NCBI GenBank assembly: GCA_023441055.1
Contig: JAEZQY010000001.1
Coordinates: 81,032 to 145,031, forward strand
Direction of reading: 5' to 3'
From: Bacillota bacterium
GTDB taxonomy: Bacteria; Bacillota; Bacilli; Paenibacillales; UBA4045
Length of the DNA: 64,000 nt
Shown here piece by piece: positions 23,363-38,759 of this stretch; position 1 is the stretch's first letter, and the number at the start of each line of letters is the position of its first letter. The notes beneath the pieces were generated by a model. That model made no database searches. It saw nothing but the letters and a program-made list of their open reading frames with translations, and was not told the DNA's origin. Made by a program: the position numbers and the translations under genes.

Positions 23363-23610
23363 TAATATAACGCTCCTCTCGTATTCCACATCCTCAGTCC
23401 AAGGACATTGTATAATAGAATGATAGATATGGTAAATGGTGTTAAAATGTAACGTTATGTATCATCTTGTCGATCCATGTGTAAATGCGTCCCTTACCGC
23501 TCGATTTGTAAAGAAATTGCGTATTCGCTATCATGAATACCAACGAACATAGGAGCGTTGTAAGCAATCAAGCTAGTCATTTCTGAGTGGAGGTGGATGA
23601 TGTGAGCAAT

Positions 23611-24453
23611 ATGAACAACAACTGGCGATTTATAAATTCAGGGCCGTGCTCGCCTGCGGAGAACATGGCGATAGACGAAGCGATTTTGACCAGTCACAGC
23701 AAGGGGCTAGTGCCTCCAACTGTACGATTCTACGGCTGGAGTCCAGCGACGCTGACGATTGGTTATTTTCAGAAGGCGGATGAAGAGGTGAATTTCGAGC
23801 GGCTGCATGCCCGCGGACTCGGCTTCGTGCGGCGTCCAACAGGCGGCAGAGCCGTGCTGCATGATGCAGAGCTGACATACAGCATCATCGTGTCAGAGGA
23901 TTATCCGGGTATTCCGAGTACCGTGAATGAAGCTTATCGGGTGCTGAGTGAGGGGCTGGTGCATGGGTTTCGCAGACTCGGCTTGCAGGCGGAGATGGTC
24001 AATCTGTCGAGCGAGGAGGACAAATCGAAGATGATGACAGGCTCGGCTGCCTGCTTCGATTCGCCTTCCTGGTATGAGCTCGTTGTTGAAGGACGCAAGG
24101 TCGCGGGCTCTGCGCAGGTCAGACAGAAGGGCGTCGTGCTGCAGCATGGCTCGATTCTGCTGGATCTGGATGTTGACCTGTTGTTCGAGGTGCTGCAATT
24201 CCCCAGTGAACGTGTCCGGGAGCGCTTGCGGGCATCCTTCACGGAGAAGGCTGTAGCCATTAATGATGTGAAGCGCAGACTGGGGCACGCGGAAGTGAGC
24301 TTGACAGAGGCTGAGGCGGCATTTCGAAGCGGATTAGCGGAGGGTCTCGGCGTTGAGCTGGAGTCCGGCGATCTGTCCGAATGGGAGCGGGAGCTTGCGC
24401 TGCAGCTCGTTCTGGAGAAGTACGGTCACCGGGATTGGAATTTCCGCAGATGA
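23611..24453 (+). CDS. lipM: Octanoyltransferase LipM (lipoate-protein ligase family)
   Basis: About 280 aa in the LplA/LipM family (WRFINSG...ENMAIDEAIL...RFYGW.PATLTIGYFQ). Synteny with yqhH/yqhG matches Bacillus yqhM=lipM. The start is ambiguous (GTG 23587/23602 or ATG 23611). Confidence 0.75.
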   Translation: MNNNWRFINSGPCSPAENMAIDEAILTSHSKGLVPPTVRFYGWSPATLTIGYFQKADEEVNFERLHARGLGFVRRPTGGRAVLHDAELTYSIIVSEDYPGIPSTVNEAYRVLSEGLVHGFRRLGLQAEMVNLSSEEDKSKMMTGSAACFDSPSWYELVVEGRKVAGSAQVRQKGVVLQHGSILLDLDVDLLFEVLQFPSERVRERLRASFTEKAVAINDVKRRLGHAEVSLTEAEAAFRSGLAEGLGVELESGDLSEWERELALQLVLEKYGHRDWNFRR

Positions 24454-24479: not shown

Positions 24480-24521
24480 TGTGATGAAGATCACTAGCGT
24501 TCCTCATCAATCTTCTATAAT
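24480..24521 (+). promoter_or_regulatory. Crp/Fnr-type box plus -10 element upstream of the RIC gene
   Basis: TGTGAtgaagaTCACT (24480-24495) has its centre 28.5 bp upstream of TATAAT (24516-24521). Confidence 0.55.
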
Positions 24522-24573: not shown

Positions 24574-25293
24574 ATGAAGCCCATTAGGATTGAGCAGAAT
24601 CGGCCAATCGGTGAGATTGTAGCTGATTTCCCGACTGCCGCGCTTATCTTCAAGAAGCACCGCATCGATTTCTGCTGCGGTGGTGATCGGCCGCTGTCAG
24701 TCGCGGCAGGCGCGAAGCAGGTCGACGTTCAGACCGTCATCGAGGAGCTGCATGCCGCATACCAGGCTGAGGCTAATCGCAAGGATCGCGGCACGGATTG
24801 GCAATCCGCGGACTACACAGCGTTAGTCGATCATGTGTTAGATACTCATCACGCCTATCTAAAGCGCGAGCTTAGCGGTATCGGCGAGTTCACGAATCGT
24901 ATTCGCAATGTGCATGGTTATCATCATCCTGAATTGCTGCGCCTCGATGAGCTGTTCCGCCAGGTGAAGGCAGAGCTTGAGGAGCATATGCAGAAGGAGG
25001 AAGCGCAAATCTTCCCGCTTGTGAAGCAATATGCGGCTGCAGGAGACAGAGAACTGCTGGCAGAAGCCGTCAAGACGATTGACGAGCTGGAGGCGGAGCA
25101 TAGCGCAGTAGGCGAACTGCTGGAGGAGATGCGCGAGATTACCGCGGACTATACGCTGCCACCGGAGGCTTGCCGGAGCTATACGGTCACATTCGAGAAG
25201 CTGGAGGAGCTGGAGGATGATATGTTCCAGCATATCCATCTTGAGAATAATATCATGTTCCCTAGACTGGAGAAGGAGCTGAGTGCCTTATGA
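24574..25293 (+). CDS. scdA: Iron-sulfur cluster repair di-iron protein (RIC / ScdA / YtfE family)
   Basis: N-terminal ScdA_N signature (HRIDFCCGGDRPL) plus a hemerythrin-like His/Glu-rich C-domain. AGGAGG RBS. Confidence 0.85.
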   Translation: MKPIRIEQNRPIGEIVADFPTAALIFKKHRIDFCCGGDRPLSVAAGAKQVDVQTVIEELHAAYQAEANRKDRGTDWQSADYTALVDHVLDTHHAYLKRELSGIGEFTNRIRNVHGYHHPELLRLDELFRQVKAELEEHMQKEEAQIFPLVKQYAAAGDRELLAEAVKTIDELEAEHSAVGELLEEMREITADYTLPPEACRSYTVTFEKLEELEDDMFQHIHLENNIMFPRLEKELSAL

Positions 25294-25577
25294 TGAAACT
25301 GCCCATGCTGAAGGAGAAGGATTGGTCGCTGAATCTGGAGGATGAAGCCTTCGTCGACAATCCGCAGGAGCTGATCGAAGAGGCAGTTAAGGCGGTGGAG
25401 ATCACCGCTGCCGGCCATTACGTGAATCTGGTGACGCCTGCTGGAACCGGTCACCCGGAGCAGGGGCTGCTCGGCGAAATCAAGCAAGCTATCGATCGCG
25501 CAGGTGTCGCTTATCAACAGATTGTTTACGTGGACGAATGCGGATGCGGCGGCTTCGTCACCAGAGTATATCGATAA
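25290..25577 (+). CDS. Small conserved protein with a C-terminal CGCGG motif
   Basis: 95 aa ending ...YVDECGCGGFVTRVYR. Its ATG overlaps the RIC stop (ATGA, 25290-25293), which implies translational coupling. Confidence 0.6.
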   Translation: MMKLPMLKEKDWSLNLEDEAFVDNPQELIEEAVKAVEITAAGHYVNLVTPAGTGHPEQGLLGEIKQAIDRAGVAYQQIVYVDECGCGGFVTRVYR

Positions 25578-25595
25578 TTTGCATTAGCTTTTGAG

Positions 25596-25706
25596 GTAGT
25601 TTTGTTGCGATGATTACTCAGGGGGTATAGCTTCACAAAACTAAGCGTATGCTTCCGAAGTAGTTTTGTTGCGATGATTACTCAAGAGGTATAGCTTCAC
25701 AAAACT
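25596..25706 (+). repeat. Two copies of a 47-nt hairpin-capable element (64-bp period)
   Basis: GTAGTTTTGTTGCGATGATTACTCA[G/A]G[G/A]GGTATAGCTTCACAAAACT occurs at 25596-25642 and 25660-25706. Each copy has AGTTTTGT...ACAAAACT inverted ends. No T-run follows either copy. Confidence 0.85.
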
Positions 25707-25723: not shown

Positions 25724-26065
25724 ATGGAAATCAAATCCTTAGGTCCATTGCGAGAGTTCGGCGAGGAACGCTTCACGAAGAGAATTATTCACAAGAAGGA
25801 TGAAAGTGTCGTATTCGTGTTAAACTTCGAGCCGGGACAGGAGCTGCCTACGCATAACCACCCGGGGACGGCTGTCTACATTCTGGTATTATCCGGCTCA
25901 GGCGAGGTGGTGATTGACGGGACGCCGTCCGCAATTACGGAAGATGATGTGGTATGGGTCGATGGAGCAGAGCAGTTCGCGTTCAAGAATACCGGCAGCG
26001 AGCGCGTTACGCTCTATGTCATGCTGGCGAAGATTCCGGATGAGCGATTCGCGCAGAATATCTAA
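25724..26065 (+). CDS. Cupin-domain protein
   Basis: Cupin motif (PTHNHPGTAVYILVLSGSGEVVIDG). GGAGGAGG RBS precedes the ATG at 25724. Confidence 0.75.
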   Translation: MEIKSLGPLREFGEERFTKRIIHKKDESVVFVLNFEPGQELPTHNHPGTAVYILVLSGSGEVVIDGTPSAITEDDVVWVDGAEQFAFKNTGSERVTLYVMLAKIPDERFAQNI

Positions 26066-26083
26066 TGAATGGAGGCTGGCGCG

Positions 26084-27349
26084 ATGACGGCGTCCAAGGC
26101 ACCCACTAATTTATACATTCTGCGATTAAGTTTCATACACTTCGCGACCGGCATCCTGCTATTACTGACAGCGATGCTGGCCGCTATCTGGCTAATTCCG
26201 GATATCGCGCAACTGGGCACATTCCGAGTGACAGAAGGGTGGCTGCTGGCCCATCTGCTGCTGCTCGGCTTCGCCTCCATGACAGCGATCGGCGCGAGCT
26301 ATCAGCTAGTGCAAGTCATCATGCGCACCGCACTGTTCAGCCGGCCGCTCGGATACGTCCAGTATGTCTGCTATACAGTCGGTCTGCTGCTCATCCTGCT
26401 CGGTTTCGGCTGGCGAATCCAGTTCGTGGCGCCGGGCGGCACGCTTGTCATTATCGGCATTATACTATACTGCGTTAATATGGGTATGACCTTGCTGCGC
26501 AAGCGCGAGTGGAACCCCTTCGTGCTGGGGATTGCGCTCAGTGCGGCCGCCTTCCTAGCGGCAGGTGTCATGGGCACGCTGCTGGGGCTGTATCTGGCGG
26601 GGAATCTGCCGTCTGCGCTGTCTGCGCTGGAGTACGATGTACTCTTCGGCAGCCATCTGTGGCTAGGGATCGGCGGCTGGCTGTCCGGTCTGATCGTGGT
26701 GTTCAGCTTCAAGCTGCTGCCCATGTTCTATGTGTCACCCAAGAAGGTGACCAGACAAGTGTATGCGATTATAGGCGGCTTCCACACAGGCATTGGGCTG
26801 CAGGTGGTGTCACTGTGGCTTAGACAAGATACGCTTACGCTGGCAGCTTATCTGATCATTGGCGGTTCAGCGGTCTGGTTCACGATCTACTTGTTCCGGG
26901 TACGTGCACTCAGCCGCGCGAAGTCGCCAGTCGGTGCTGTGCGGACAGCCTTCTGGCTTATCCCATTACATACCGCGCTGTTCCTGCTATGGGGCGCGAT
27001 GATCCAGCTTCATATAGCAGAGGACCTACTCCATGAGAGCGTTCTGGCGTTCATAACACTAGGGTGGTTCATCCCTTCAATCTTAGCCTATCTGTCCAAA
27101 ATACTGCCATTCCTCTGGTGGGCGCATCGGTTCCGTACCGGGGCGCAGAAGAAGGCAGCTGTGCTGCTCTCTGAGATGCTGCCAGAGCGTCGGCTGACGC
27201 TGGAGCTGACTGGATACATAATAGGCGCTGCCTTACTGTCAATTGGCTTCTACTACGGTTCTGCCGCAATTGTGGTATTAGGGCAGGTGCTTATGACGGG
27301 CTTCCTGCTGGTCTATCTGTGTGAGCTGACCCGCACCTTCCGATACTGA
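26084..27349 (+). CDS. 12-TM His-bearing integral membrane protein, paralogue 1 (NnrS-like / haem-copper-oxidase-subunit-I-like; family not verified)
   Basis: About 12 hydrophobic helices. Blocks are shared with the protein at 36541-37773 (GW..AHLL.LG.A.M...GA.YQL; H.WLG..GW......FSFK.LPMFY.S; .LAYLSKI.PFLWW.H.). GGAGG lies 8 nt before the ATG at 26084, which is 18 nt past the cupin stop at 26063-26065. Confidence 0.6.
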   Translation: MTASKAPTNLYILRLSFIHFATGILLLLTAMLAAIWLIPDIAQLGTFRVTEGWLLAHLLLLGFASMTAIGASYQLVQVIMRTALFSRPLGYVQYVCYTVGLLLILLGFGWRIQFVAPGGTLVIIGIILYCVNMGMTLLRKREWNPFVLGIALSAAAFLAAGVMGTLLGLYLAGNLPSALSALEYDVLFGSHLWLGIGGWLSGLIVVFSFKLLPMFYVSPKKVTRQVYAIIGGFHTGIGLQVVSLWLRQDTLTLAAYLIIGGSAVWFTIYLFRVRALSRAKSPVGAVRTAFWLIPLHTALFLLWGAMIQLHIAEDLLHESVLAFITLGWFIPSILAYLSKILPFLWWAHRFRTGAQKKAAVLLSEMLPERRLTLELTGYIIGAALLSIGFYYGSAAIVVLGQVLMTGFLLVYLCELTRTFRY

Positions 27350-27454: not shown

Positions 27455-29137
27455 ATGGACGATCAGGATTTGCGAATACGCAGTCATGTGATTAGCGAGG
27501 GAACCGGCCGCGCGCCGAATCGAGCCATGCTAAGGGCGGTCGGGTTTACGGATGCAGACTTCCAGAAGCCGATGATTGGCATAGCCAGCACCTGGAGTGA
27601 AGTGACGCCATGCAATATGCATATCGATCAGCTCGCCGTGCATGCCAAGCAAGGAGCTAAAGATAATGGCGGAGCGCCGCTAACCTTCGGTACGATTACG
27701 GTATCAGACGGGATTGCGATGGGGCATGTCGGGATGCGCTACTCGCTCCCGAGTCGGGAGGTAATCGCCGATTCGATCGAGACCGTTGTAAGCGCAGAGC
27801 GATTGGATGGTCTAGTAGCGATTGGCGGCTGCGACAAGAATATGCCAGGCTGTCTAATCGCTATGGGGAGGCTGAACGTCCCTGCTGTATTCGTGTACGG
27901 CGGTACGATTGCGCCGGGTGATCTACACGGACAGGATATCGATATTGTCTCCGCCTTCGAGGCAGTTGGACAATTCAATCAGGGCAGTATCAATTCAGAG
28001 CAATTGTATGACGTCGAGTGCCATGCTTGTCCGGGAGCTGGCTCCTGCGGGGGTATGTATACGGCGAATACGATGGCTTCCGCTATCGAGGCAATGGGAA
28101 TGAGCTTGCCGGGCAGCTCATCGAATCCGGCGGAGACGTCGCTCAAGCAAGAGGATTGCTTCAAGGCCGGACAGGCGGTAGTCGATCTGCTACGCAAGGG
28201 AATCTATCCGCGGGATATCATGACTAGGCTGGCGTTCGAGAATGCGATCACTGTGGTGATGGCGCTGGGCGGGTCGACGAATGCCATCCTGCATCTGCTC
28301 GCCATGGCTCATGCGGTTGATGTTGATCTGACGCTGGACGACTTCGAGACAATCCGCGCTCGTGTGCCGATGCTGGCGGATATGAAGCCGAGCGGCCGCT
28401 ATGTCATGCAGGATCTATATGAGGCAGGCGGTGTCCCGGCTGTTATGAAGCTGCTGCTGGATGAGGGGCTGCTTCATGGTCACTGTATAACTGTTACTGG
28501 CAGGACCGTCGCCGAGAATCTGGCTGATCTTCCCGGATTGGTCGATGGTCAGGAGGTCATCCGACCGATGTCCAATCCGGTGAAGGCATCAGGCCATCTG
28601 GTCGTGCTGAAGGGGAATCTGGCACCGGAGGGCTCCGTTGCCAAGACATCAGGCCTCAAGTCAACGCGATTCATTGGGCCGGCGAGCGTGTTCGATTCCG
28701 AGGAGGAAGCAACCACTGCGCTGCTGGAGGATCGGATTCAGCCAGGTGATGTGATCGTCATCCGCTATGCCGGACCGAAGGGTGGACCAGGTATGTCCGA
28801 GATGCTAGCGATTACAGCGATTGTAATCGGCAAGGGCTTGAACGAGCAGGTTGCGCTGTTAACAGATGGACGCTTCTCAGGTGGGACGCACGGCTTCGTA
28901 GTCGGGCATATTGCCCCTGAAGCTCAAGTCTGTGGACCGATCGCGCTCATCCAGGACGGCGATATCATTACCATCGACAGCGAGACGCGAGAACTCAGCG
29001 TTGACGTATCGGAGGCTGAGCTCGCAGAGCGACGCCAGACCTGGGTCGAACCGCCACTCCGCTATAATCGAGGTGTGCTGTACAAGTACGCGCAGCTCGT
29101 CTCCTCGGCCTCTAAAGGCGCGGTTACTGATTTGTAA
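27455..29137 (+). CDS. ilvD: Dihydroxy-acid dehydratase
   Basis: 560 aa with typical IlvD blocks ([37 protein letters not shown]). Confidence 0.95.
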
Positions 29138-31307: not shown

Positions 31308-31397
31308 TTGTATCATGTCGCACACAATAGACTTAACCTCATCAAGTATTAGGGAATTTCCAGCGGCTAGTTTATAATGAATGGAGGAGGTGCAGCG

Positions 31398-32387
31398 ATG
31401 AAATTTATCGATAATCAAGGGATAACCGATCCACGCATCAATCTTGCGATCGAAGAATATGCGCTCAGACATCTGGATCAGGAGGACGATTACCTCTTGT
31501 TCTATGTGAATGAGCCCTCGATTATTATCGGCAAGAATCAGAATACCGTCGAGGAAATTAATCAGGCCTACGTGGAGGAGCACAGCATTCATGTTGTTCG
31601 AAGATTATCGGGTGGAGGCGCCGTCTATCATGATCTGGGCAATCTGAATTTCAGCTTCATTACCAAGGATGACGGACAGTCCTTCCATAATTATAGAAAG
31701 TTCACGGAACCAGTAGTGGAGGCACTGCATAAACTCGGCGTACAAGCGGAGCTTACCGGACGCAACGATATACAGGTAGGAGAGCGTAAAATTTCCGGCA
31801 ATGCGCAATTCGCGACCAAGGGACGGATGTATTCGCATGGCACGTTAATGCTCCAGACGGACCTGGAGGAGGTGACACGCGCTCTCAAGGCGAATAGGGC
31901 GAAAATTGAATCCAAAGGGATTAAGTCGATTCGCAGCCGAGTGGCGAACATCTCTGAGTTTCTGCGTGAACCAATTACCATGGAACAATTTAAGGATCAT
32001 CTATTAGCTTCTATATTCGGTGGCGGCCAGCGTGAGCAATATGTGCTGCAGGAGGACGATTGGCGCAGAATCGAAGAGATCTCAGCTGCTCGCTATCGGA
32101 CCTGGGAATGGAACTTCGGCAAATCACCTGCCTATAATGTGACAATCTCACGCCGGTTCGAAGGGGTAGGCACGCTCGACATCCGGCTGCAGGTGGAGGG
32201 AGGAATGATCGAATTCGTGAGAATCTTCGGTGATTTCTTCGGAACAGCGGATGTGCAAGAACTGGAGGAGCGGCTGGTGGGTGTGCCTTACAGCCGCGCT
32301 GAGATTGAGGAAGCCTTGGGCAAGCTGGATTTGAAGCCTTATTTTGGCAGGTTGGAGAGCGGGTTGTTCTTCGAGTTGTTCACATAG
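31398..32387 (+). CDS. lplJ: Lipoate--protein ligase
   Basis: MKFIDNQGITDPRINLAIEEYAL...RRLSGGGAVYHDLGNLNFSF is typical of the LplA/LplJ family, and a C-terminal accessory domain is present. GGAGGAGG RBS. Confidence 0.9.
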   Translation: MKFIDNQGITDPRINLAIEEYALRHLDQEDDYLLFYVNEPSIIIGKNQNTVEEINQAYVEEHSIHVVRRLSGGGAVYHDLGNLNFSFITKDDGQSFHNYRKFTEPVVEALHKLGVQAELTGRNDIQVGERKISGNAQFATKGRMYSHGTLMLQTDLEEVTRALKANRAKIESKGIKSIRSRVANISEFLREPITMEQFKDHLLASIFGGGQREQYVLQEDDWRRIEEISAARYRTWEWNFGKSPAYNVTISRRFEGVGTLDIRLQVEGGMIEFVRIFGDFFGTADVQELEERLVGVPYSRAEIEEALGKLDLKPYFGRLESGLFFELFT

Positions 32388-33699: not shown

Positions 33700-34689
33700 T
33701 CAGTGACTCATCGGCTTGGCACCATTGTCCTTGCCATCTTCGGTCACTCTTAGTATCGCCACCGCACCCTTGCTCGCATGGTTGAACTGATGGGTCACAA
33801 TGGCGTAGTCGCCAGCTTCTGTGACAGTGAATTCAACTACCGCGCCGCCGCTTGCTGGCAGCATGACCGTCTGCATTCCCTTCAGCACATTAGCGGGATT
33901 ACCATCCAGGTAGACGTTGTCCATGATCGTGCCCACGACGTGAAGGGAGCTTACTTCATTCGGGCCTACGTTGTTCACATAGAGGCGAACCTTGTCGCCG
34001 ACCTTAGCCAGCAGGGGCTTCTCCTTAAGGCCGAAGTCATTGCCGTTGAATACGACGTAGGAGGGTACACCGTTCAGGAAGTCACTGTAATCCTTCTCCT
34101 TATACCATTCGCTCTGTACGATTACATATTCCTGATCGATCTCAGCGTCAGTAGGATAGCCTTCAGTTGGCTCTACGATAATTACACCATACATCCCGTT
34201 CGCGATATGGGCCAGTACTGGTGCGGTTCCACAGTGGTACATGAATACGCCTGGCATATTGGCGGGATAAGTGAAGGTGCCTTCTTCTTCGGGCATGATA
34301 TCGATGAATTTCTCACTCGGCGATGCATGCACCGCATGGAAGTCCATGGAGTGGGGAACATCGGGATCGAGATTCTTCAGTGTGAAGTTAATGATATCGC
34401 CTTGCTTAACACGCAGTACAGGCCCCGGCACAGTGCCGTTGAATGTCCAGGCGTTATAGAATACGCCCTTGGAGATCTCCACATCAGTTACCTGCGCGGT
34501 CATCTCAATATTGACAATGTTGCCGTTACGCTCGACAATCGGTTCGATGGGCGGCTGGTTGATCTTCGCAGGGGCTGCAGCTTCTGCTGCTGGCGGATTA
34601 GACACAGGTGCTGCTTTGTTAGATCCACACCCGGTTAAAATCAATGCGATGGCGGACAGTAAGATGGCAGTTTTCTTTATGGCTAGCAT
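33700..34689 (-). CDS. nirK: Copper-containing nitrite reductase (NirK), lipoprotein form
   Basis: Lipobox LTGCGS. Type-2/type-1 Cu ligand blocks are present (PHSMDFHAVH; MYHCGTAPVLAHIANGMYG). It has a two-cupredoxin length of about 330 aa. ATG 34689 follows AAAGGTGA. Confidence 0.85.
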   Translation of the reverse strand: MLAIKKTAILLSAIALILTGCGSNKAAPVSNPPAAEAAAPAKINQPPIEPIVERNGNIVNIEMTAQVTDVEISKGVFYNAWTFNGTVPGPVLRVKQGDIINFTLKNLDPDVPHSMDFHAVHASPSEKFIDIMPEEEGTFTYPANMPGVFMYHCGTAPVLAHIANGMYGVIIVEPTEGYPTDAEIDQEYVIVQSEWYKEKDYSDFLNGVPSYVVFNGNDFGLKEKPLLAKVGDKVRLYVNNVGPNEVSSLHVVGTIMDNVYLDGNPANVLKGMQTVMLPASGGAVVEFTVTEAGDYAIVTHQFNHASKGAVAILRVTEDGKDNGAKPMSH

Positions 34690-34798
34690 GAGAATCACCT
34701 TTCCTTCTTATAATTGTGATTTCCTTCTCAACCAGCCGGAAAAAGTTTTGCCTGTCTGTTCGAGCTATCATCCGCTATCGGCTGGTTCTTATGATTCA

Positions 34799-34841
34799 AG
34801 CTTACGTTTTTAAGGAGAAACCAAATGTGATTGAGAACACA
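34799..34841 (-). promoter_or_regulatory. Crp/Fnr-type box plus -10 element upstream of nirK
   Basis: TGTGAttgagaACACA (34826-34841, 9/10 match) has its centre 29.5 bp upstream of TAAGCT (minus strand, 34804-34799). Confidence 0.45.
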
Positions 34842-34876
34842 TCTCAATTAGCTGTCGTTATGTCGCCACAATTGCA

Positions 34877-34918
34877 ATAAAAAATCAGGTAATGTGATGA
34901 TAATCACACTGCCTGATT
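34877..34918 (-). terminator. Terminator of the crp-GNAT unit (its stem contains a perfect TGTGAT-N4-ATCACA palindrome)
   Basis: Minus strand reads AATCAGGcagTGTGATtatcATCACAttaCCTGATTTTTTATT, a long hairpin plus a T-run. Confidence 0.7.
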
Positions 34919-34958
34919 GTAAATATACTTACAGTTATAGGTTATAGAGAGAGCAAGC

Positions 34959-35390
34959 TTATCTCCCAATCGTCTTCTCCATCACGACATGTGGCATATC
35001 CGCTTCCAGGAAGAGATCCGACGTCGTCTGATAGCCCAACTGGGTATAGAAGGACTCCGCGTGTGTCTGGGCATGCAGCTTCAGCTGCGTCATATTGTGC
35101 TGGATCGCGTATTGTTCCATGGCTTCCATTAAGTGTCTCCCGTATCCTCTTCTGCGATGCGGGGCTAAGATACAGAACCGCTCGACCTTGACGAATGGAT
35201 AGATGCTGCGTAATCGGCCTGTTCCGATTGGCAGCTCTCCATCGTAGAGGATGAAGTGGATGGACTCGGCTTCATGCTCATCTACTTCGAGTTCCATTGG
35301 AACCTGTTGCTCCTCCACGAACACTTGCATACGGATGTGAAATGCTGACTTCAGTTGTTCCTCTGTTGATGCAACCTCGATCTTCAGCAT
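34959..35390 (-). CDS. GNAT-family N-acetyltransferase
   Basis: Pattern ILAPHRRRGYGRHLMEAM. Start taken at MLKIEV, which follows GAAAGG. A GTG start at 35426 overlapping the crp stop is the alternative. Confidence 0.65.
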   Translation of the reverse strand: MLKIEVASTEEQLKSAFHIRMQVFVEEQQVPMELEVDEHEAESIHFILYDGELPIGTGRLRSIYPFVKVERFCILAPHRRRGYGRHLMEAMEQYAIQHNMTQLKLHAQTHAESFYTQLGYQTTSDLFLEADMPHVVMEKTIGR

Positions 35391-35422
35391 GTGATCGTCG
35401 ACCTTTCTATTCCATGTCCAAC

Positions 35423-36109
35423 TCACTTCACCAATAGCTCCTTCAGTCGATCAATGTCATATATCACATAACCAGTGCGGTCGGTTTCCAGGATACCATC
35501 CTTGCGCAGCTGGTTGATCAGTCGATTAACCGTCTCGCGAGTTGTGCCGATCGTGCTGGCGAACTCCTGGTTAGTCATTGGAACATTGATATGGATCGCG
35601 CCGTCTCTGGATGTACCGTACTTCTCCGCTAGGGTCAGGAGGAAGGAGAGGCCGCGGTCCTGCACGTCATTACCTGTCAACTCCTGCAGCTTGCGCTGCA
35701 GCTCTTCGATCTTCGTACTGAGTCCTCGCATCACCTTGATTGATATTTCGGGAATACGAATCAGAAGCTGCTCGAATGAACGAATGGGAATAGCCAGCAG
35801 CTTGGTATCGACGATGGCCTCTGTTGTTGCAGGGTAGGGATGTTGATTGAACAATCCCGTATGCGGGAACATCTCGCCGGATTTCAGGAAGGAGACAATA
35901 TGCTCATTGCCATTCTCATCAGTCTTGAATGCCTTGACCAGACCGTCCTGTATGAAGTATACCGCTTCCTTATCATCGCCTTCGATGAAGATAATCGTCC
36001 GCTTGCGGTAAGAACGTTGAATGGTAATGGTGTGGATCTGCTCCAATTCTTCATCGGTAAGGTCACGGAACAATGGAACCTTGCGTAGAATCTCCAATTC
36101 ATGCTTCAT
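35423..36109 (-). CDS. Crp/Fnr-family transcriptional regulator (cysteine-free)
   Basis: cNMP-binding-type beta-roll (LRKVPLFRDLTDEEL...) plus a C-terminal HTH with recognition helix TRETVNRLINQL. The 228-aa translation contains no Cys. Confidence 0.85.
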   Translation of the reverse strand: MKHELEILRKVPLFRDLTDEELEQIHTITIQRSYRKRTIIFIEGDDKEAVYFIQDGLVKAFKTDENGNEHIVSFLKSGEMFPHTGLFNQHPYPATTEAIVDTKLLAIPIRSFEQLLIRIPEISIKVMRGLSTKIEELQRKLQELTGNDVQDRGLSFLLTLAEKYGTSRDGAIHINVPMTNQEFASTIGTTRETVNRLINQLRKDGILETDRTGYVIYDIDRLKELLVK

Positions 36110-36204: not shown

Positions 36205-36513
36205 CTAGAAAAACGATAGCTGCTCCTTAGCCGCATCAGACATCTTCTCAGGTGTCCATGGCGGGCTCCAGACGACGTTCACATGCACAGCGTTTACCGC
36301 TGGCAGTCCCAGCAAGGCTCGCTCCACGCCGCCAGCTATTGTATCATGCATCGGGCAGCCTGGCGTAGTCAGTGTCATCGTGACGGTAACAATGCCGTCG
36401 TTATCTTGTTCGATGGCATAGATAAGTCCCAGATCAACAATATTCACGCCAAGCTCGGGGTCATAGACCAATCGCAGCTGGTCCATAATCAATTCCTGAT
36501 CAGTTAACATCAT
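36205..36513 (-). CDS. DUF59 / SufT-like metal-sulfur cluster assembly factor
   Basis: VYDPELGVNIVDLGLIY...TLTTPGCPMHD is the DUF59 signature. ATG 36513 follows GAGAGGAGTGG. Confidence 0.8.
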   Translation of the reverse strand: MMLTDQELIMDQLRLVYDPELGVNIVDLGLIYAIEQDNDGIVTVTMTLTTPGCPMHDTIAGGVERALLGLPAVNAVHVNVVWSPPWTPEKMSDAAKEQLSFF

Positions 36514-36540
36514 TTCCACTCCTCTCAGAATCGTAATAGA

Positions 36541-37773
36541 TCAACGTAAGAATACATTCGCGATCAATCCCATATAGCCGATCGAACTGATCGACAGCAG
36601 GCAGCCGCCGATCGTGATAAGCGGCATAACCGATGTGCCGATCCCGATCACGAGCAGCGCGAGGCTCGCTGCGATCAGGCTCAGCCCGATCCGTACATAC
36701 CGGTCATTGATCAGGTCAGACATCGTGGGAATCTTCTTCTTCCCGACCTGCGGGCCGTACTTATGCGTCCACCATAGGAAGGGCACGATCTTGGACAGAT
36801 AGGCCAGCATCGTGATGCCCAGAAACCCCCATAGGTAAATCCAGCCCAGCATCGTGCTGATGCGCACCTGCAGCACCTGGTCTGGCACAGCAGCAGCGGC
36901 GATCAGCACAATCAGGCTCACCAGTAGCAGCATTCGCGCCGACCAGATGGACCAGCGTATGCCCTCGCCCGGATTAGGCTTATGCTTGGCTCGTCGAATT
37001 TGCCGAATGTGATAGCTGTATAGGGCGAGTGCGGTGACAAGGAGGAGCAGGGCGAACCACTTCGCTAGATCATGCCAGTCCAGCAGGAAAGCGACGGCGC
37101 CGAGCGCGGCTGATGCATGCCAGAGATGTACGATATACTTCTGCAAGGTTTCGGAATGGCCGTGCGATAGATAGAACATCGGCAGCATCTTGAAGCTGAA
37201 GCCGATGATCAGCAGCCCAAACCAGCCGATCATACCTAGCCAGATATGCGCGTGGAAGATCTGCTCATGCATGAAGCTCCACCAGCCGAACGCGAAGTTC
37301 ATGCCCATTGCCATTCCGCTGAGACCTGTGAAGAAGAGGTAGACTACAGCGAGTCCCGCGCTGACCGTGATGGGTGTCCACTTACCGGCACGTACCAGAG
37401 TGGCAAACAGATTGATCGCGAATAGAATAATTCCGATATAAGCGACGGTGGCCGAGATGCCGATCAGCATGAAATTTGCTTGGTAGAAGCCGACCAGCAA
37501 GCCTGCAGAGCCAATGGTGAACACGCCATAATTAGTGAAGCCCAGCTTCTCACTGAAGATATTGGATTGCAGCACCACATTGATCAACTGATACACAGCA
37601 CCCATTGCAATCATCGTAGCCCAGCCGAGCACGAGCAGATGCGCGCTGAACCAGCCTTGGGGGCTGCGCGGATGCTCACCGATCCAGCCTGCCGCGTCAG
37701 CAAGATTGAAGCCCTGAAACAGGAAGAAGCAGACCATGCCAGTTATAATGAATGAGAAGGGGAGTCGGAACAT
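36541..37773 (-). CDS. 12-TM His-bearing integral membrane protein, paralogue 2
   Basis: 410 aa, alignable by eye over its whole length with 26084-27349 (same conserved His-containing blocks). AGGAGG RBS. Confidence 0.6.
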   Translation of the reverse strand: MFRLPFSFIITGMVCFFLFQGFNLADAAGWIGEHPRSPQGWFSAHLLVLGWATMIAMGAVYQLINVVLQSNIFSEKLGFTNYGVFTIGSAGLLVGFYQANFMLIGISATVAYIGIILFAINLFATLVRAGKWTPITVSAGLAVVYLFFTGLSGMAMGMNFAFGWWSFMHEQIFHAHIWLGMIGWFGLLIIGFSFKMLPMFYLSHGHSETLQKYIVHLWHASAALGAVAFLLDWHDLAKWFALLLLVTALALYSYHIRQIRRAKHKPNPGEGIRWSIWSARMLLLVSLIVLIAAAAVPDQVLQVRISTMLGWIYLWGFLGITMLAYLSKIVPFLWWTHKYGPQVGKKKIPTMSDLINDRYVRIGLSLIAASLALLVIGIGTSVMPLITIGGCLLSISSIGYMGLIANVFLR

Positions 37774-37790
37774 GGCGTGATCCTCCTAAC

Positions 37791-38342
37791 TTAAGATTTC
37801 GTTATCGTTACAATGGCAGACCCATCTTCTTGATTATCAACGCTATAGGTGTAATTGAGCGCATGGAGTTCTTCAATCAGGAACATGGGCACGCGATCAT
37901 TGTGAATAACCACCTGATCGCCAGCTGAGGCGCTGCTCAGCTTGGCTAATGTACGCACCATCGGCTGTGGCGGCTCCAGACCGCGATTGTCGAGCATGAA
38001 TACACGAGGCTCCGCGGCGGAATCACCCTGAGCTTCAGCAGACGCGTCACCCAGCTCATCATCCGCAGGCGCATCAGAGTGAGTAGCCTGATCACCAGTC
38101 AGCAGATGCTTCATACTCTTATGAACGAAGGTCGTGATCCAGTGCTCATCACCGACCTTCTCCACCTTGTTGTGGAAGCCCTTGGTCTTCATTAGACCGA
38201 GCAGAGGAGTCGGCTTGAACGTGGCATGCAGGACGAATAAGTCGTCCTTCTCCAGCTTCTTCACCGCATCCATAATTAGCTGGAATGGCTCCAGCTTCTT
38301 CTTCAATTGCTCTCTAACATCGAGCTCGATAGTCCGCGTCAT
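37791..38342 (-). CDS. Protein with two DUF2249-like domains joined by an acidic linker
   Basis: Domain 1 runs IELDVRE...LFVLHATFKPTPLLGLM...HWITTF. Domain 2 runs MLDNRGLEPPQPMVRTL...VVIHNDRVPMFLIEEL...GSAIVTITK. The start overlaps the upstream stop (ATGA). Confidence 0.6.
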   Translation of the reverse strand: MTRTIELDVREQLKKKLEPFQLIMDAVKKLEKDDLFVLHATFKPTPLLGLMKTKGFHNKVEKVGDEHWITTFVHKSMKHLLTGDQATHSDAPADDELGDASAEAQGDSAAEPRVFMLDNRGLEPPQPMVRTLAKLSSASAGDQVVIHNDRVPMFLIEELHALNYTYSVDNQEDGSAIVTITKS

Positions 38343-38683
38343 ACCGACACCTCCTTGAGCTGCTCTTTGGCTGCTTCGTACAACCCAGCCATACCGCCGT
38401 AGAGCGCATAGAAGAACGAGTCCGGCGCATCAAGCGAGAAGGATAAGTATTGCTTGGGATCGGTTCCCAGCATCTTCTCGAACAGGCTGGCGGAATCGTA
38501 GGCATAGAAGCAGAAGTAGGTGTACTCGAATTCCGGCATCTTATCGCGTATGGTCACGATGTCCTGCGCATATCGCGGGATATTCTGAGCAGCTTCCCGC
38601 ACCATGCTGATTGCATCGTCCAGCGTAACGTGAATCTGGATCGTCTTCTCGTCCACAATATCAATATGAGCCATAGGAAACAT
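38339..38683 (-). CDS. Hypothetical protein (first gene of the operon)
   Basis: 111-114-aa ORF (ATG 38683 or 38674) following AAGGAGTGG. I recognise no motif. Confidence 0.5.
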   Translation of the reverse strand: MFPMAHIDIVDEKTIQIHVTLDDAISMVREAAQNIPRYAQDIVTIRDKMPEFEYTYFCFYAYDSASLFEKMLGTDPKQYLSFSLDAPDSFFYALYGGMAGLYEAAKEQLKEVSV

Positions 38684-38717: not shown

Positions 38718-38759
38718 AGTATAGCGCTCCTTCATATTCAGAACGTGATCCTAATCACA
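38718..38759 (-). promoter_or_regulatory. Crp/Fnr-type box plus -10 element upstream of the 38683 operon
   Basis: CGTGAtcctaaTCACA (38744-38759, 9/10 match) has its centre 28.5 bp upstream of TATACT (minus strand, 38723-38718). Confidence 0.5.

What the first reader, a model, noticed from the sequence alone, without database searches (positions are those of the whole stretch)
25290..25577. 95-aa CGCGG-motif protein translationally coupled to the RIC/ScdA Fe-S repair gene, with no radical-SAM partner in sight
The ORF starts in the ATGA overlap with the RIC stop codon and ends ...IVYVDECGCGGFVTRVYR.

I recall, but cannot verify here, that small proteins with an invariant C-terminal CGCGG motif have been proposed as radical-SAM-modified peptide precursors. 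No radical-SAM or SPASM gene occurs anywhere in this 64-kb window. The gene is instead embedded in a di-iron / cupin / 12-TM membrane protein operon behind a Crp/Fnr-type box.

The context therefore points to a metal- or cluster-binding accessory role in nitrosative stress, with two adjacent Cys in a Gly-rich turn. A RiPP precursor seems less likely.
Basis: partly seen in the sequence, partly recalled or inferred. Interest (0 to 1): 0.6.

Follow-up and report, generated by a model that had tools for sequence, protein, structure and literature searches.

The report
Cys-hairpin helper protein in nitrite-stress operon
This small gene encodes a folded protein with an exposed Cys-Gly-Cys turn that belongs to a nitrite/nitric-oxide stress gene set, and the evidence says its database label 'radical-SAM-modified peptide precursor' is probably wrong.

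Summary
The ORF is real. It is 95 aa, shares an ATGA overlap with the RIC stop codon, and ends ...DECGCGGFVTRVYR. It scores 90.9 bits against NCBIfam TIGR03995 (cut-off 70).

It is predicted to be a compact beta-alpha-beta-alpha-beta-beta domain (AlphaFold2 pLDDT 92). The invariant CGCGG forms the turn of the last hairpin, and conservation runs along the whole length. That is unlike a RiPP precursor.

The family's supposed maturase is TIGR04053, whose nearest characterised relatives are the tetrapyrrole enzymes AhbD and NirJ. This 99.96 %-complete genome has no TIGR04053 gene.

Among 401 Paenibacillales genomes:
- 71 of 80 TIGR04053 holders lack CGCGG.
- 5 of 14 CGCGG holders lack TIGR04053.
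- All 14 CGCGG holders carry the haem-copper-oxidase-like 12-TM protein encoded two genes downstream.

The operon sits behind a Crp/Fnr-type box inside an island that also holds NirK, DUF2249, DUF59, IlvD and LplA genes.

Best reading: a cytoplasmic, rSAM-independent accessory of the NO-stress module that uses its Cys pair to hold iron or an Fe-S centre for RIC and client metalloproteins. The ligand is inferred, not shown.

The family is known and uncharacterised, and interest is moderate.

The parts
24480..24495 (+). Crp/Fnr-type box TGTGATGAAGATCACT, centred about 41 bp upstream of the inferred transcription start
   Evidence: The window holds 8 boxes with at most 1 mismatch, against 1.79 expected; 0 of 100 shuffles reach 8.
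24516..24521 (+). TATAAT -10 hexamer of the operon promoter (inferred)
   Evidence: Read directly from the sequence. The generic sigma-70 scan, which needs a -35 hexamer, did not list it. That is expected for an activator-dependent promoter.
24574..25293 (+). RIC/ScdA di-iron Fe-S repair protein, 239 aa
   Evidence: TIGR03652, 258.8 bits against a cut-off of 204.7; Pfam ScdA_N plus Hemerythrin.
25290..25577 (+). CGCGG-family protein, 95 aa, with only two Cys (C84, C86); translationally coupled to RIC
   Evidence: TIGR03995, 90.9 bits. AlphaFold2 pLDDT 92.3, pTM 0.83. pI 4.6 and no signal peptide.
25587..25706 (.). Two tandem copies of a 64-nt intergenic repeat. This is a dispersed repeat family of the genome, not specific to the operon.
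   Evidence: The close relative L092 has an 82-aa DUF2249-like ORF in the same gap.
25724..26065 (+). Small Cupin_2 protein, 113 aa, with a GGAGGAGG ribosome-binding site upstream
   Evidence: Pfam PF07883, E = 2.5e-13. It is fused to a CGCGG domain in metagenome protein P0164 / locus L096.
26069..27349 (+). 12-TM protein (TM12a) with a haem-copper-oxidase subunit-I-like fold and few conserved His
   Evidence: No Pfam or NCBIfam family. AlphaFold2 pLDDT 86.9. Foldseek finds cbb3 CcoN at TM 0.71 and NorB at TM 0.65. H196 is the only invariant His.
33700..34698 (-). NirK-type copper nitrite reductase, a lipoprotein, with Crp-type boxes at 34715, 34826 and 34893
35423..36109 (-). Crp/Fnr-family regulator without any Cys; candidate activator of the island
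36205..38683 (-). Second module, transcribed in the order 113-aa ORF, double DUF2249, TM12b (36541-37773), DUF59/SufT-like, with a Crp-type box at 38744

Best explanation
The ORF encodes a genuine member of the CGCGG family (TIGR03995/PF26005).

What it is (shown or predicted):
- A small, acidic, cytoplasmic protein predicted to fold as an alpha/beta domain.
- Its only two cysteines sit in an invariant Cys-Gly-Cys-Gly-Gly turn at the tip of the C-terminal beta-hairpin.

How it is expressed:
- It is the second cistron of an operon of RIC, CGCGG, cupin and an HCO-like 12-TM protein (shown).
- The operon is driven by a Crp/Fnr-type activator site, as part of a NirK-centred nitrite/NO-stress island (box shown, activation inferred).

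How it probably works (inferred):
- It needs no radical-SAM enzyme in this organism.
- The exposed thiolate pair holds iron, as a mononuclear, Fe-S or dinitrosyl-iron species, probably across a dimer or a partner interface.
- It passes that iron between the di-iron protein RIC and client metal centres: the cupin and 12-TM proteins here, and the Fe-S-rich AhbD-type radical-SAM enzyme in organisms that have one.
- That role would explain why it co-occurs with the radical-SAM enzyme without being its substrate.
For: - Family membership and invariance of the motif.
- Confident globular model, with CGCGG as the 84-88 turn between strands 77-83 and 89-94, and conservation along the whole length.
- TIGR04053 is absent from this 99.96 %-complete genome, with no remnant by tblastn. 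The other two SPASM proteins are an anaerobic sulfatase maturase and a 298-aa enzyme found irrespective of CGCGG.
- In 401 Paenibacillales genomes there are 14 with CGCGG, 80 with TIGR04053 and 96 with TM12. Of the TIGR04053 holders, 71 of 80 lack CGCGG. Of the CGCGG holders, 9 of 14 have TIGR04053 and 14 of 14 have TM12 (Fisher 9e-10; genus-level 5e-5 for TM12 against 0.085 for the rSAM).
- rSAM-less genomes are scattered in the CGCGG tree, needing at least 3 changes, and their genes are intact.
- dN against the 81 % relative is 0.14, lower than RIC (0.24) and TM12 (0.24), with dS saturated.
- Neighbours within 7 kb in 81 loci: TM12 27, DUF2249 23, TIGR04053 14, NirK 13, qNor 9, cupin 9, RIC 5.
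- TIGR04053's next-best NCBIfam matches are AhbD, NirJ2 and AhbC. H. volcanii ahbD lies in the nirK/norB cluster, and its deletion is rescued by haem (PMC5746218).
- Read-through or fusion forms exist with RIC (L018) and with the cupin (P0164/L096).
- The island's theme is Fe-S damage control: RIC, DUF59/SufT-like, an extra IlvD and two LplA genes.
Against: - No experiment or structure shows metal binding.
- Only two Cys per chain, so any cluster would need a dimer or a partner.
- No sequence or fold relative with a known ligand: PDB profile search empty, best Foldseek TM 0.57, hhalign against DUF2249 null.
- RIC adjacency is lineage-specific (5 of 81 loci). In Bacillaceae the gene sits beside MsrAB and an acyltransferase, away from the module.
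- Family-wide, TIGR04053 still co-occurs in 43 of 50 CGCGG genomes, and the two genes are translationally coupled in some haloarchaea. A direct rSAM-CGCGG reaction elsewhere is therefore not excluded.
- One rSAM-less relative, Thermobacillus xylanilyticus L025, has a frameshifted copy.
Confidence: 0.45

Rival explanations
1. Cofactor chaperone or soluble subunit of the HCO-like 12-TM protein. The CGC hairpin would deliver or hold haem, or a metal such as Cu or Fe, for TM12. Its link to AhbD would then reflect anaerobic haem supply rather than Fe-S care.
For: - TM12 is the best co-occurring gene: 14 of 14 in Paenibacillales and 48 of 50 family-wide.
- TM12 is also the commonest neighbour, within 2 kb in 22 loci.
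- TM12 has the CcoN/NorB fold.
- TIGR04053 co-occurs with TM12 (50 genomes, p = 4e-17) and is AhbD-like.
- Archaeal members are His-rich, median 8 His.
- From memory: the CuB chaperone Cox11 uses a CFCF motif.
Against: - TM12 keeps only one invariant His and one near-invariant His, so it is unclear which cofactor it holds.
- The Paenibacillaceae CGCGG proteins have only about 2 His.
- CGCGG is cytoplasmic, whereas HCO metal insertion by the known chaperones takes place on the outer face of the membrane.
- 82 of 96 TM12-holding Paenibacillales genomes do without CGCGG.
Confidence: 0.25
2. Redox-active CXC disulfide shuttle. Cys84 and Cys86 would cycle between dithiol and disulfide to pass electrons to or from RIC, the cupin, MsrAB or AhbD.
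For: - An exposed C-G-C turn.
- Adjacency to MsrAB in 7 Bacillaceae loci.
- From memory: CGC motifs act as shuttle disulfides in Erv2p and as PDI mimics.
Against: - No thioredoxin-like fold and no flavin or partner reductase in the operon.
- The invariant Gly-Gly after the Cys pair, and the conserved Asp and Glu/Gln before it, fit a ligand-binding loop at least as well.
Confidence: 0.1
3. It is what the label says: a protein substrate modified at the CGCGG site by a radical-SAM/SPASM enzyme. In this genome the gene would then be an orphan left after loss of TIGR04053, or be served by another rSAM.
For: - TIGR04053 exceeds its cut-off in 43 of 50 CGCGG genomes.
- It is adjacent in 14 of 81 loci and directly downstream in several haloarchaea.
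- One rSAM-less relative has a frameshifted copy.
- The genome has two other SPASM enzymes.
Against: - 71 of 80 TIGR04053 genomes lack CGCGG.
- TIGR04053 is nearest to tetrapyrrole enzymes. In H. volcanii, the ahbD deletion phenotype is haem auxotrophy under anoxia (PMC5746218).
- The protein is folded and conserved throughout, and under purifying selection here.
- At least 3 independent rSAM-less lineages keep it intact.
- No peptidase or exporter is nearby.
- The other SPASM enzymes are a sulfatase maturase and a CGCGG-independent family.
Confidence: 0.08
4. The ORF is not expressed or is a spurious call.
For: No transcript or peptide data could be obtained.
Against: - E = 5e-26 to a curated family.
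- Conserved synteny with an 81 %-identical relative.
- dN lower than that of its neighbours.
- A ribosome-binding site and start/stop coupling.
Confidence: 0.01

Closest known systems
TIGR03995 / PF26005 'CGCGG family putative rSAM-modified RiPP protein' (uncharacterised)
   Same: Scores above the curated cut-off. It has the same length, the same invariant WS.NLE, VNLVT and CGCGG motifs, and the same denitrification/NO context as the archaeal and Bacillales members.
   Different: This genome and at least four other Paenibacillaceae lack the TIGR04053 rSAM on which the family's name rests. Here the gene is coupled to RIC instead.
AhbD (haem b synthase, EC 1.3.98.6) and the TIGR04053 radical SAM/SPASM family
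   Same: This is the enzyme family that co-occurs with CGCGG. In archaea it is induced or located with nirK and nor. It is a partner, not a homologue.
   Different: It is not encoded in this genome. Its known chemistry acts on coproheme, not on peptides.
A-type Fe-S carriers (IscA/SufA/ErpA) with a C-terminal C-G-C-G motif (recalled from memory)
   Same: A Cys-Gly-Cys-Gly thiolate pair on a small acidic protein, in a context of Fe-S repair and assembly proteins (RIC, DUF59).
   Different: No HMM or profile similarity, a different predicted fold, and no third conserved Cys. This is an analogy of mechanism only.
TusA/DUF2249 small beta-alpha-beta-alpha-beta-beta proteins of the same islands
   Same: The same order of secondary-structure elements and the same size. 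DUF2249 genes are the second commonest neighbour, and one occupies the CGCGG-cupin gap in relative L092. There is a weak Foldseek hit to a TusA-like YeeD complex (TM 0.45).
   Different: hhalign probability 0.04 %. There is no CPxP motif, and the reactive Cys are in the last hairpin, not at helix 1.
rSAM/SPASM-modified precursors such as MftA and PqqA
   Same: A small gene product with a conserved C-terminal Gly/Cys-rich motif, and family-level co-occurrence with a SPASM enzyme.
   Different: Those are 20-40-aa, largely unstructured peptides whose maturase is obligatorily present. This is a 95-aa folded domain that persists without the enzyme.

Membership tests
TIGR03995 / PF26005 (CGCGG family) | HMM score above the curated cut-off (70 bits) | tested here: met
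   90.9 bits, E = 5.1e-26, covering residues 9-94. PF26005 is precomputed on all 38 homologues.
TIGR03995 / PF26005 (CGCGG family) | Invariant C-terminal C-G-C-G-G motif | tested here: met
   Residues 84-88. C84, G85, G87 and G88 are invariant and C86 is conserved in at least 90 % of 75 sequences. The motif is present in 78 of 78 intact genomic homologues.
TIGR03995 / PF26005 (CGCGG family) | Co-occurrence with the TIGR04053 radical SAM/SPASM enzyme, which is the basis of the 'rSAM target' name | tested here: not met
   There is no TIGR04053 match in the own genome. The best rSAM hit to the L018 enzyme is 31.5 bits. The feature is met in 43 of 50 other CGCGG genomes.
RiPP precursor | Cognate maturase encoded nearby or in the genome | tested here: not met
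   None of the 17 rSAM matches lies on the window's contig. The two SPASM proteins are a sulfatase maturase and a CGCGG-independent family.
RiPP precursor | Leader/core architecture: short, largely unstructured, with conservation limited to recognition and core segments | tested here: not met
   pLDDT 92.3 and pTM 0.83 for a compact domain. Conserved positions are spread from W12 to R92.
RiPP precursor | Processing peptidase or exporter in the cluster | tested here: not met
   The neighbours are RIC, cupin, TM12, IlvD and LplA, with no peptidase or ABC exporter in the operon.
RiPP precursor | Covalent post-translational modification of the product | not testable with these tools
   This needs intact-mass or MS/MS analysis of the native protein.
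A-type Fe-S carrier (IscA/SufA, PF01521) | Match to the family HMM and three conserved Cys (C-X~60-C-G-C) | tested here: not met
   No Pfam family at E <= 0.01, and only two Cys in the protein.
TusA/DUF2249 | Profile similarity or a CPxP motif | tested here: not met
   hhalign probability 0.04 %, and no CPxP in the sequence.

The most novel reading that the evidence does not exclude
The CGCGG family would be a previously unrecognised kind of thiolate-hairpin carrier for iron, Fe-S or nitrosyl-iron, or an assembly factor. It would serve the NO-handling module built around an uncharacterised, ligand-poor haem-copper-oxidase-like membrane protein, in both Bacillales and haloarchaea. The 'rSAM-modified RiPP' label used by NCBI and Pfam would then be wrong for the whole family, having arisen from co-regulation with the anaerobic haem synthase AhbD.
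Probability: 0.3. Interest if true: 0.7.

Novelty: new member of a known kind. Interest (0 to 1): 0.5.

Why it matters
Genome annotation and RiPP-mining pipelines label every member of this family a RiPP precursor. If that is wrong, natural-product surveys inherit a false biosynthetic class.

More importantly, the gene marks an untouched module for surviving self-made nitric oxide. The module comprises the CGCGG protein, an HCO-like 12-TM protein, DUF2249, DUF59 and a cupin, and it is shared by denitrifying haloarchaea and Firmicutes.

A genome that keeps CGCGG without the radical-SAM enzyme is a natural experiment. It separates the two functions and offers a clean background for mass-spectrometric and metal-binding tests.

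Tried and rejected
- **PDB relatives.** A profile search and Foldseek on the model gave only weak partial Rossmann/methyltransferase overlaps (TM <= 0.58, E >= 4e-3). The resemblance of 'DECGCGG' to methyltransferase motif I was rejected because here the motif lies in the last hairpin, not after strand 1.
- **Homology to DUF2249/TusA.** hhalign found nothing.
- **Rfam scan of the operon leader and gap.** No matches.
- **Rosetta-stone search with the L018 CGCGG-RIC open frame.** No second fusion turned up among 3,724 RIC homologues, and NCBI calls ScdA separately there. This is weak evidence only.
- **Fusion fold.** The alignment built to fold the L018 fusion (A4) was misaligned by MAFFT, so the fold was not run.
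- **The 298-aa rSAM/SPASM as an alternative maturase.** This enzyme (C66) lies next to nitroreductase and Asp/Glu racemase genes, which precede CGCGG in L094 and L002. It was rejected because it occurs in 9 of 22 sampled CGCGG-negative genomes and is missing from 5 of 14 CGCGG-positive ones.
- **CGCGG-rSAM fusion P0188.** It comes from an assembly full of split genes, so it was not used.
- **Literature.** No paper mentions TIGR03995, TIGR04053, PF26005 or 'CGCGG family'.

Full report
**1. The observation**

The window has an ORF at 25290-25577 (+) of 95 aa ending ...IVYVDECGCGGFVTRVYR. Its ATG overlaps the TGA of the preceding gene (ATGA), and an AAGGAG lies 11 nt upstream.

- The preceding gene is a RIC/ScdA di-iron protein: TIGR03652, 258.8 bits, with ScdA_N and Hemerythrin domains.
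- Downstream lie a 113-aa Cupin_2 protein and a 426-aa membrane protein with no Pfam or NCBIfam family.
- The ORF scores 90.9 bits (E = 5e-26) on NCBIfam TIGR03995, 'CGCGG family putative rSAM-modified RiPP protein', against a cut-off of 70. Its database homologues carry PF26005 'rSAM_target_put'. The local Pfam copy returned no family for it.
- The protein is acidic (pI 4.6) and has no signal peptide. Its only two Cys are C84 and C86.

**2. The protein itself**

A 75-sequence alignment spanning Paenibacillaceae, Bacillaceae, Halobacteria and Hydrothermarchaeota shows conservation along the whole chain:

- Invariant: W12, E17, T39, V45, N46, P56, C84, G85, G87, G88, V90.
- Near-invariant: S13, L16, G42, T49, G54, D82, C86, R92.

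AlphaFold2 gives a confident compact model, pLDDT 92.3 and pTM 0.83. Its elements are beta(12-15), alpha(20-37), beta(44-49), alpha(60-71), beta(77-83) and beta(89-94). CGCGG is the tight turn of the final hairpin.

No solved structure is related by sequence. The best structural matches are weak partial overlaps with Rossmann-type methyltransferases, TM <= 0.58.

The family is small: 111 clusters at 50 % identity out of 1.84 billion representatives. A few divergent members read C-E-C-G-G, so C-x-C-G-G is the core of the motif. Archaeal members are His-rich (median 8 His), while Paenibacillaceae members have about 2.

**3. The supposed radical-SAM partner**

Among 81 loci (80 fetched loci plus the window), a radical SAM/SPASM gene lies within 7 kb in 14. 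It is TIGR04053, scoring 475-541 bits against a cut-off of 395.

- Its next-best NCBIfam models are all tetrapyrrole enzymes: haem b synthase AhbD, NirJ2, AhbC and NirJ.
- In haloarchaea the only other paralogue found is the AhbC-like TIGR04347 pseudo-SAM protein.
- In Haloferax volcanii, ahbD (HVO_2144) lies in the nirK/norB cluster. Its deletion blocks anaerobic growth, and haem restores it (PMC5746218).
- About two-thirds of haloarchaea carry ahbD (PMC8305020).

That TIGR04053 is this AhbD is an inference. It rests on these scores, on the shared context, and on the single above-cut-off control hit in H. volcanii.

**4. Whole-genome tests**

The window's genome is 99.96 % complete and has no TIGR04053. 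tblastn finds no remnant either.

It has 17 Radical_SAM matches, none on the window's contig, and two SPASM proteins:

- One is an anaerobic sulfatase maturase (TIGR03942, 400 bits).
- The other is an unassigned 298-aa enzyme. It occurs in Paenibacillales irrespective of CGCGG.

Family-wide, TIGR04053 exceeds its cut-off in 43 of 50 CGCGG-bearing genomes. The 12-TM protein (TM12) is present in 48 of 50.

In an even sample of 401 Paenibacillales genomes:

| Gene | Genomes with it |
|---|---|
| CGCGG | 14 |
| TIGR04053 | 80 |
| TM12 | 96 |

- 71 of 80 TIGR04053 holders lack CGCGG.
- 9 of 14 CGCGG holders have TIGR04053 (Fisher 2.8e-4; genus-level p = 0.085).
- 14 of 14 CGCGG holders have TM12 (Fisher 9e-10; genus-level p = 5e-5).

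So neither gene needs the other, and the membrane protein tracks CGCGG better than the rSAM does.

The rSAM-less CGCGG genomes are this one, ZCTH02-B3, Paenibacillus cymbidii and Gorillibacterium massiliense. They are scattered within the Paenibacillaceae clade of the CGCGG tree, needing at least 3 changes, and their genes are intact. Thermobacillus xylanilyticus XE also lacks the rSAM, but its copy is frameshifted.

Against an 81 %-identical relative with the same synteny, dN of CGCGG is 0.14. That is lower than RIC (0.24) and TM12 (0.24), with dS saturated. The gene is under purifying selection.

**5. Genomic context**

The operon has a TGTGA-N6-TCACT box at 24480-24495, about 41 bp upstream of the start site inferred from a TATAAT at 24516-24521. 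The window holds 8 such boxes against 1.79 expected, and 0 of 100 shuffles reach 8. Six of the eight precede island genes.

The island also contains:

- a lipoprotein NirK
- an MFS transporter
- a Crp-family regulator with no Cys at all
- a DUF59/SufT-like protein
- three DUF2249 domains
- a second TM12 paralogue (36541-37773)
- an extra IlvD
- two lipoate-protein ligases

My qNor model found no match in the genome.

TM12 was folded here (pLDDT 86.9). It matches cbb3 CcoN at TM 0.71 and NorB at TM 0.65, but keeps only one invariant His.

Neighbours within 7 kb of CGCGG across the 81 loci:

| Neighbour | Loci |
|---|---|
| TM12 | 27 (22 within 2 kb) |
| DUF2249 | 23 |
| cupredoxin | 15 |
| TIGR04053 | 14 |
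| NirK | 13 |
| TIGR04347 pseudo-SAM | 11 |
| qNor | 9 |
| cupin | 9 |
| CopA | 7 |
| RIC | 5 |
| Crp | 5 |

In the 17 Bacillaceae loci none of these is adjacent. There CGCGG sits beside MsrAB (7 loci), an acyltransferase (6) and a coupled ORF of about 95 aa (7-10). In Bacillus sp. HNG (L083), RIC, Crp, TIGR04053, TM12 and DUF59 genes cluster elsewhere in the genome, and other Bacillaceae show TM12 a few kb from TIGR04053.

Open frames joining CGCGG to a neighbour occur twice in sound assemblies:

- CGCGG-RIC in Gordoniibacillus kamchatkensis (L018). It is not recurrent.
- CGCGG-cupin in a metagenome contig, immediately after qNor (P0164/L096).

**6. Mechanism**

Shown or predicted by tools:
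- a conserved protein with a confidently predicted fold
- an exposed Cys-Gly-Cys turn
- membership of a Crp-box-marked nitrite/NO island
- independence from TIGR04053 in this genome

Inferred:
- The thiolate pair binds a metal centre.
- Iron, Fe-S or nitrosyl-iron is favoured, because the gene is translationally coupled to RIC and the island is devoted to Fe-S damage control: RIC, DUF59, a spare IlvD, and lipoate salvage that would bypass LipA.
- The Fe-S-rich AhbD-type enzyme would be another client. That would explain the co-occurrence without a substrate relationship.

Rivals, in decreasing order of likelihood:
- a cofactor chaperone or subunit for TM12, which is the strongest statistical partner
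- a CXC disulfide shuttle
- a true rSAM substrate that is orphaned here

Earlier AI notes from this scan reached the 'AhbD plus folded helper' reading for haloarchaeal loci, and the 'ligand-poor HCO-like' reading for TM12. I treated these as leads. The points re-tested here were the family scores, the TM12 fold and the co-occurrence.

**7. Verdict**

This is a genuine member of a known but uncharacterised family, in an informative rSAM-less context.

- Metal binding remains to be shown.

Noticed in passing
window 25587-25706: Two tandem 64-nt repeats fill the CGCGG-cupin gap. They fold into a long hairpin (z = -3.6). The same unit occurs in tandem arrays on at least five other contigs of the genome (C35, C61, C22, C14, C27), so it is a dispersed intergenic repeat family rather than an operon-specific signal.
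   Followed up: partly
L092:10368-10616 (relative, 81 % identical CGCGG): In the close relative the CGCGG-cupin gap holds an 82-aa ORF that looks DUF2249-like (LDVRE...P...L...G pattern). The window has the repeat element there instead, so a gene was apparently lost or replaced.
   Followed up: partly
window 36205-38683 (-) and 33700-36109 (-): A second module comprises a 113-aa ORF, a double DUF2249, TM12b and DUF59, followed by a Cys-free Crp-family regulator and a lipoprotein NirK. Each transcription unit has a TGTGA-N6-TCACA box upstream (38744; 34715, 34826, 34893; 31292).
   Followed up: partly
window 23587-24453, 27455-29137, 31377-32387: Two lipoate-protein ligase genes and an IlvD (an Fe-S dehydratase) flank the operon. 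Relatives add acetolactate synthase and Com_YlbF (L092, L096). This suggests replacement or bypass of NO-sensitive Fe-S enzymes as part of the island.
   Followed up: no
L018:3754-4791: In Gordoniibacillus kamchatkensis the CGCGG frame reads without a stop into RIC, giving 345 aa. It is followed by a YwiC-like protein, TIGR04053, a NorB fragment, a hemerythrin, a cupin, a frameshifted TM12 and Crp. NCBI annotates ScdA separately, and no second such fusion was found.
   Followed up: yes
L096:8001-8663 (P0164): A 220-aa CGCGG-cupin fusion lies directly downstream of qNor on an 83-kb metagenome contig that also carries IlvD, TM12 and Crp.
   Followed up: partly
L030, L039, L041, L043, L046, L054, L057 (Bacillaceae loci, just 3' of CGCGG): A conserved ORF of about 92-104 aa overlaps the 3' end of the CGCGG gene by 6-43 nt. 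It has no Pfam or NCBIfam family and ends ...IYFP(H). It may be a coupled partner specific to Bacillaceae.
   Followed up: no
own genome C66:271141-272034 (L095:7142-8035): An unassigned 298-aa radical SAM/SPASM protein is followed by nitroreductase and Asp/Glu racemase genes, with a hemerythrin 2 kb upstream. The nitroreductase-racemase pair directly precedes CGCGG in L094, and the nitroreductase also precedes it in L002. The rSAM itself is widespread irrespective of CGCGG.
   Followed up: yes
P0203, P0208, P0212: Divergent family members carry C-E-C-G-G, some with an extra upstream Cys (CGRCECGG), instead of C-G-C-G-G.
   Followed up: no
L019, L024, L035, L037, L040, L062 (archaeal loci): A conserved protein of about 200 aa with an FTPTTPFCPQ motif reminiscent of DUF59 accompanies TM12 and CGCGG in 9 haloarchaeal loci. 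It has no Pfam hit.
   Followed up: no
L025:10001-10278: The CGCGG gene of Thermobacillus xylanilyticus XE, an rSAM-less genome, is frameshifted. This may be decay or a sequencing error. A Thermobacillus MAG copy (P0022) is intact.
   Followed up: no
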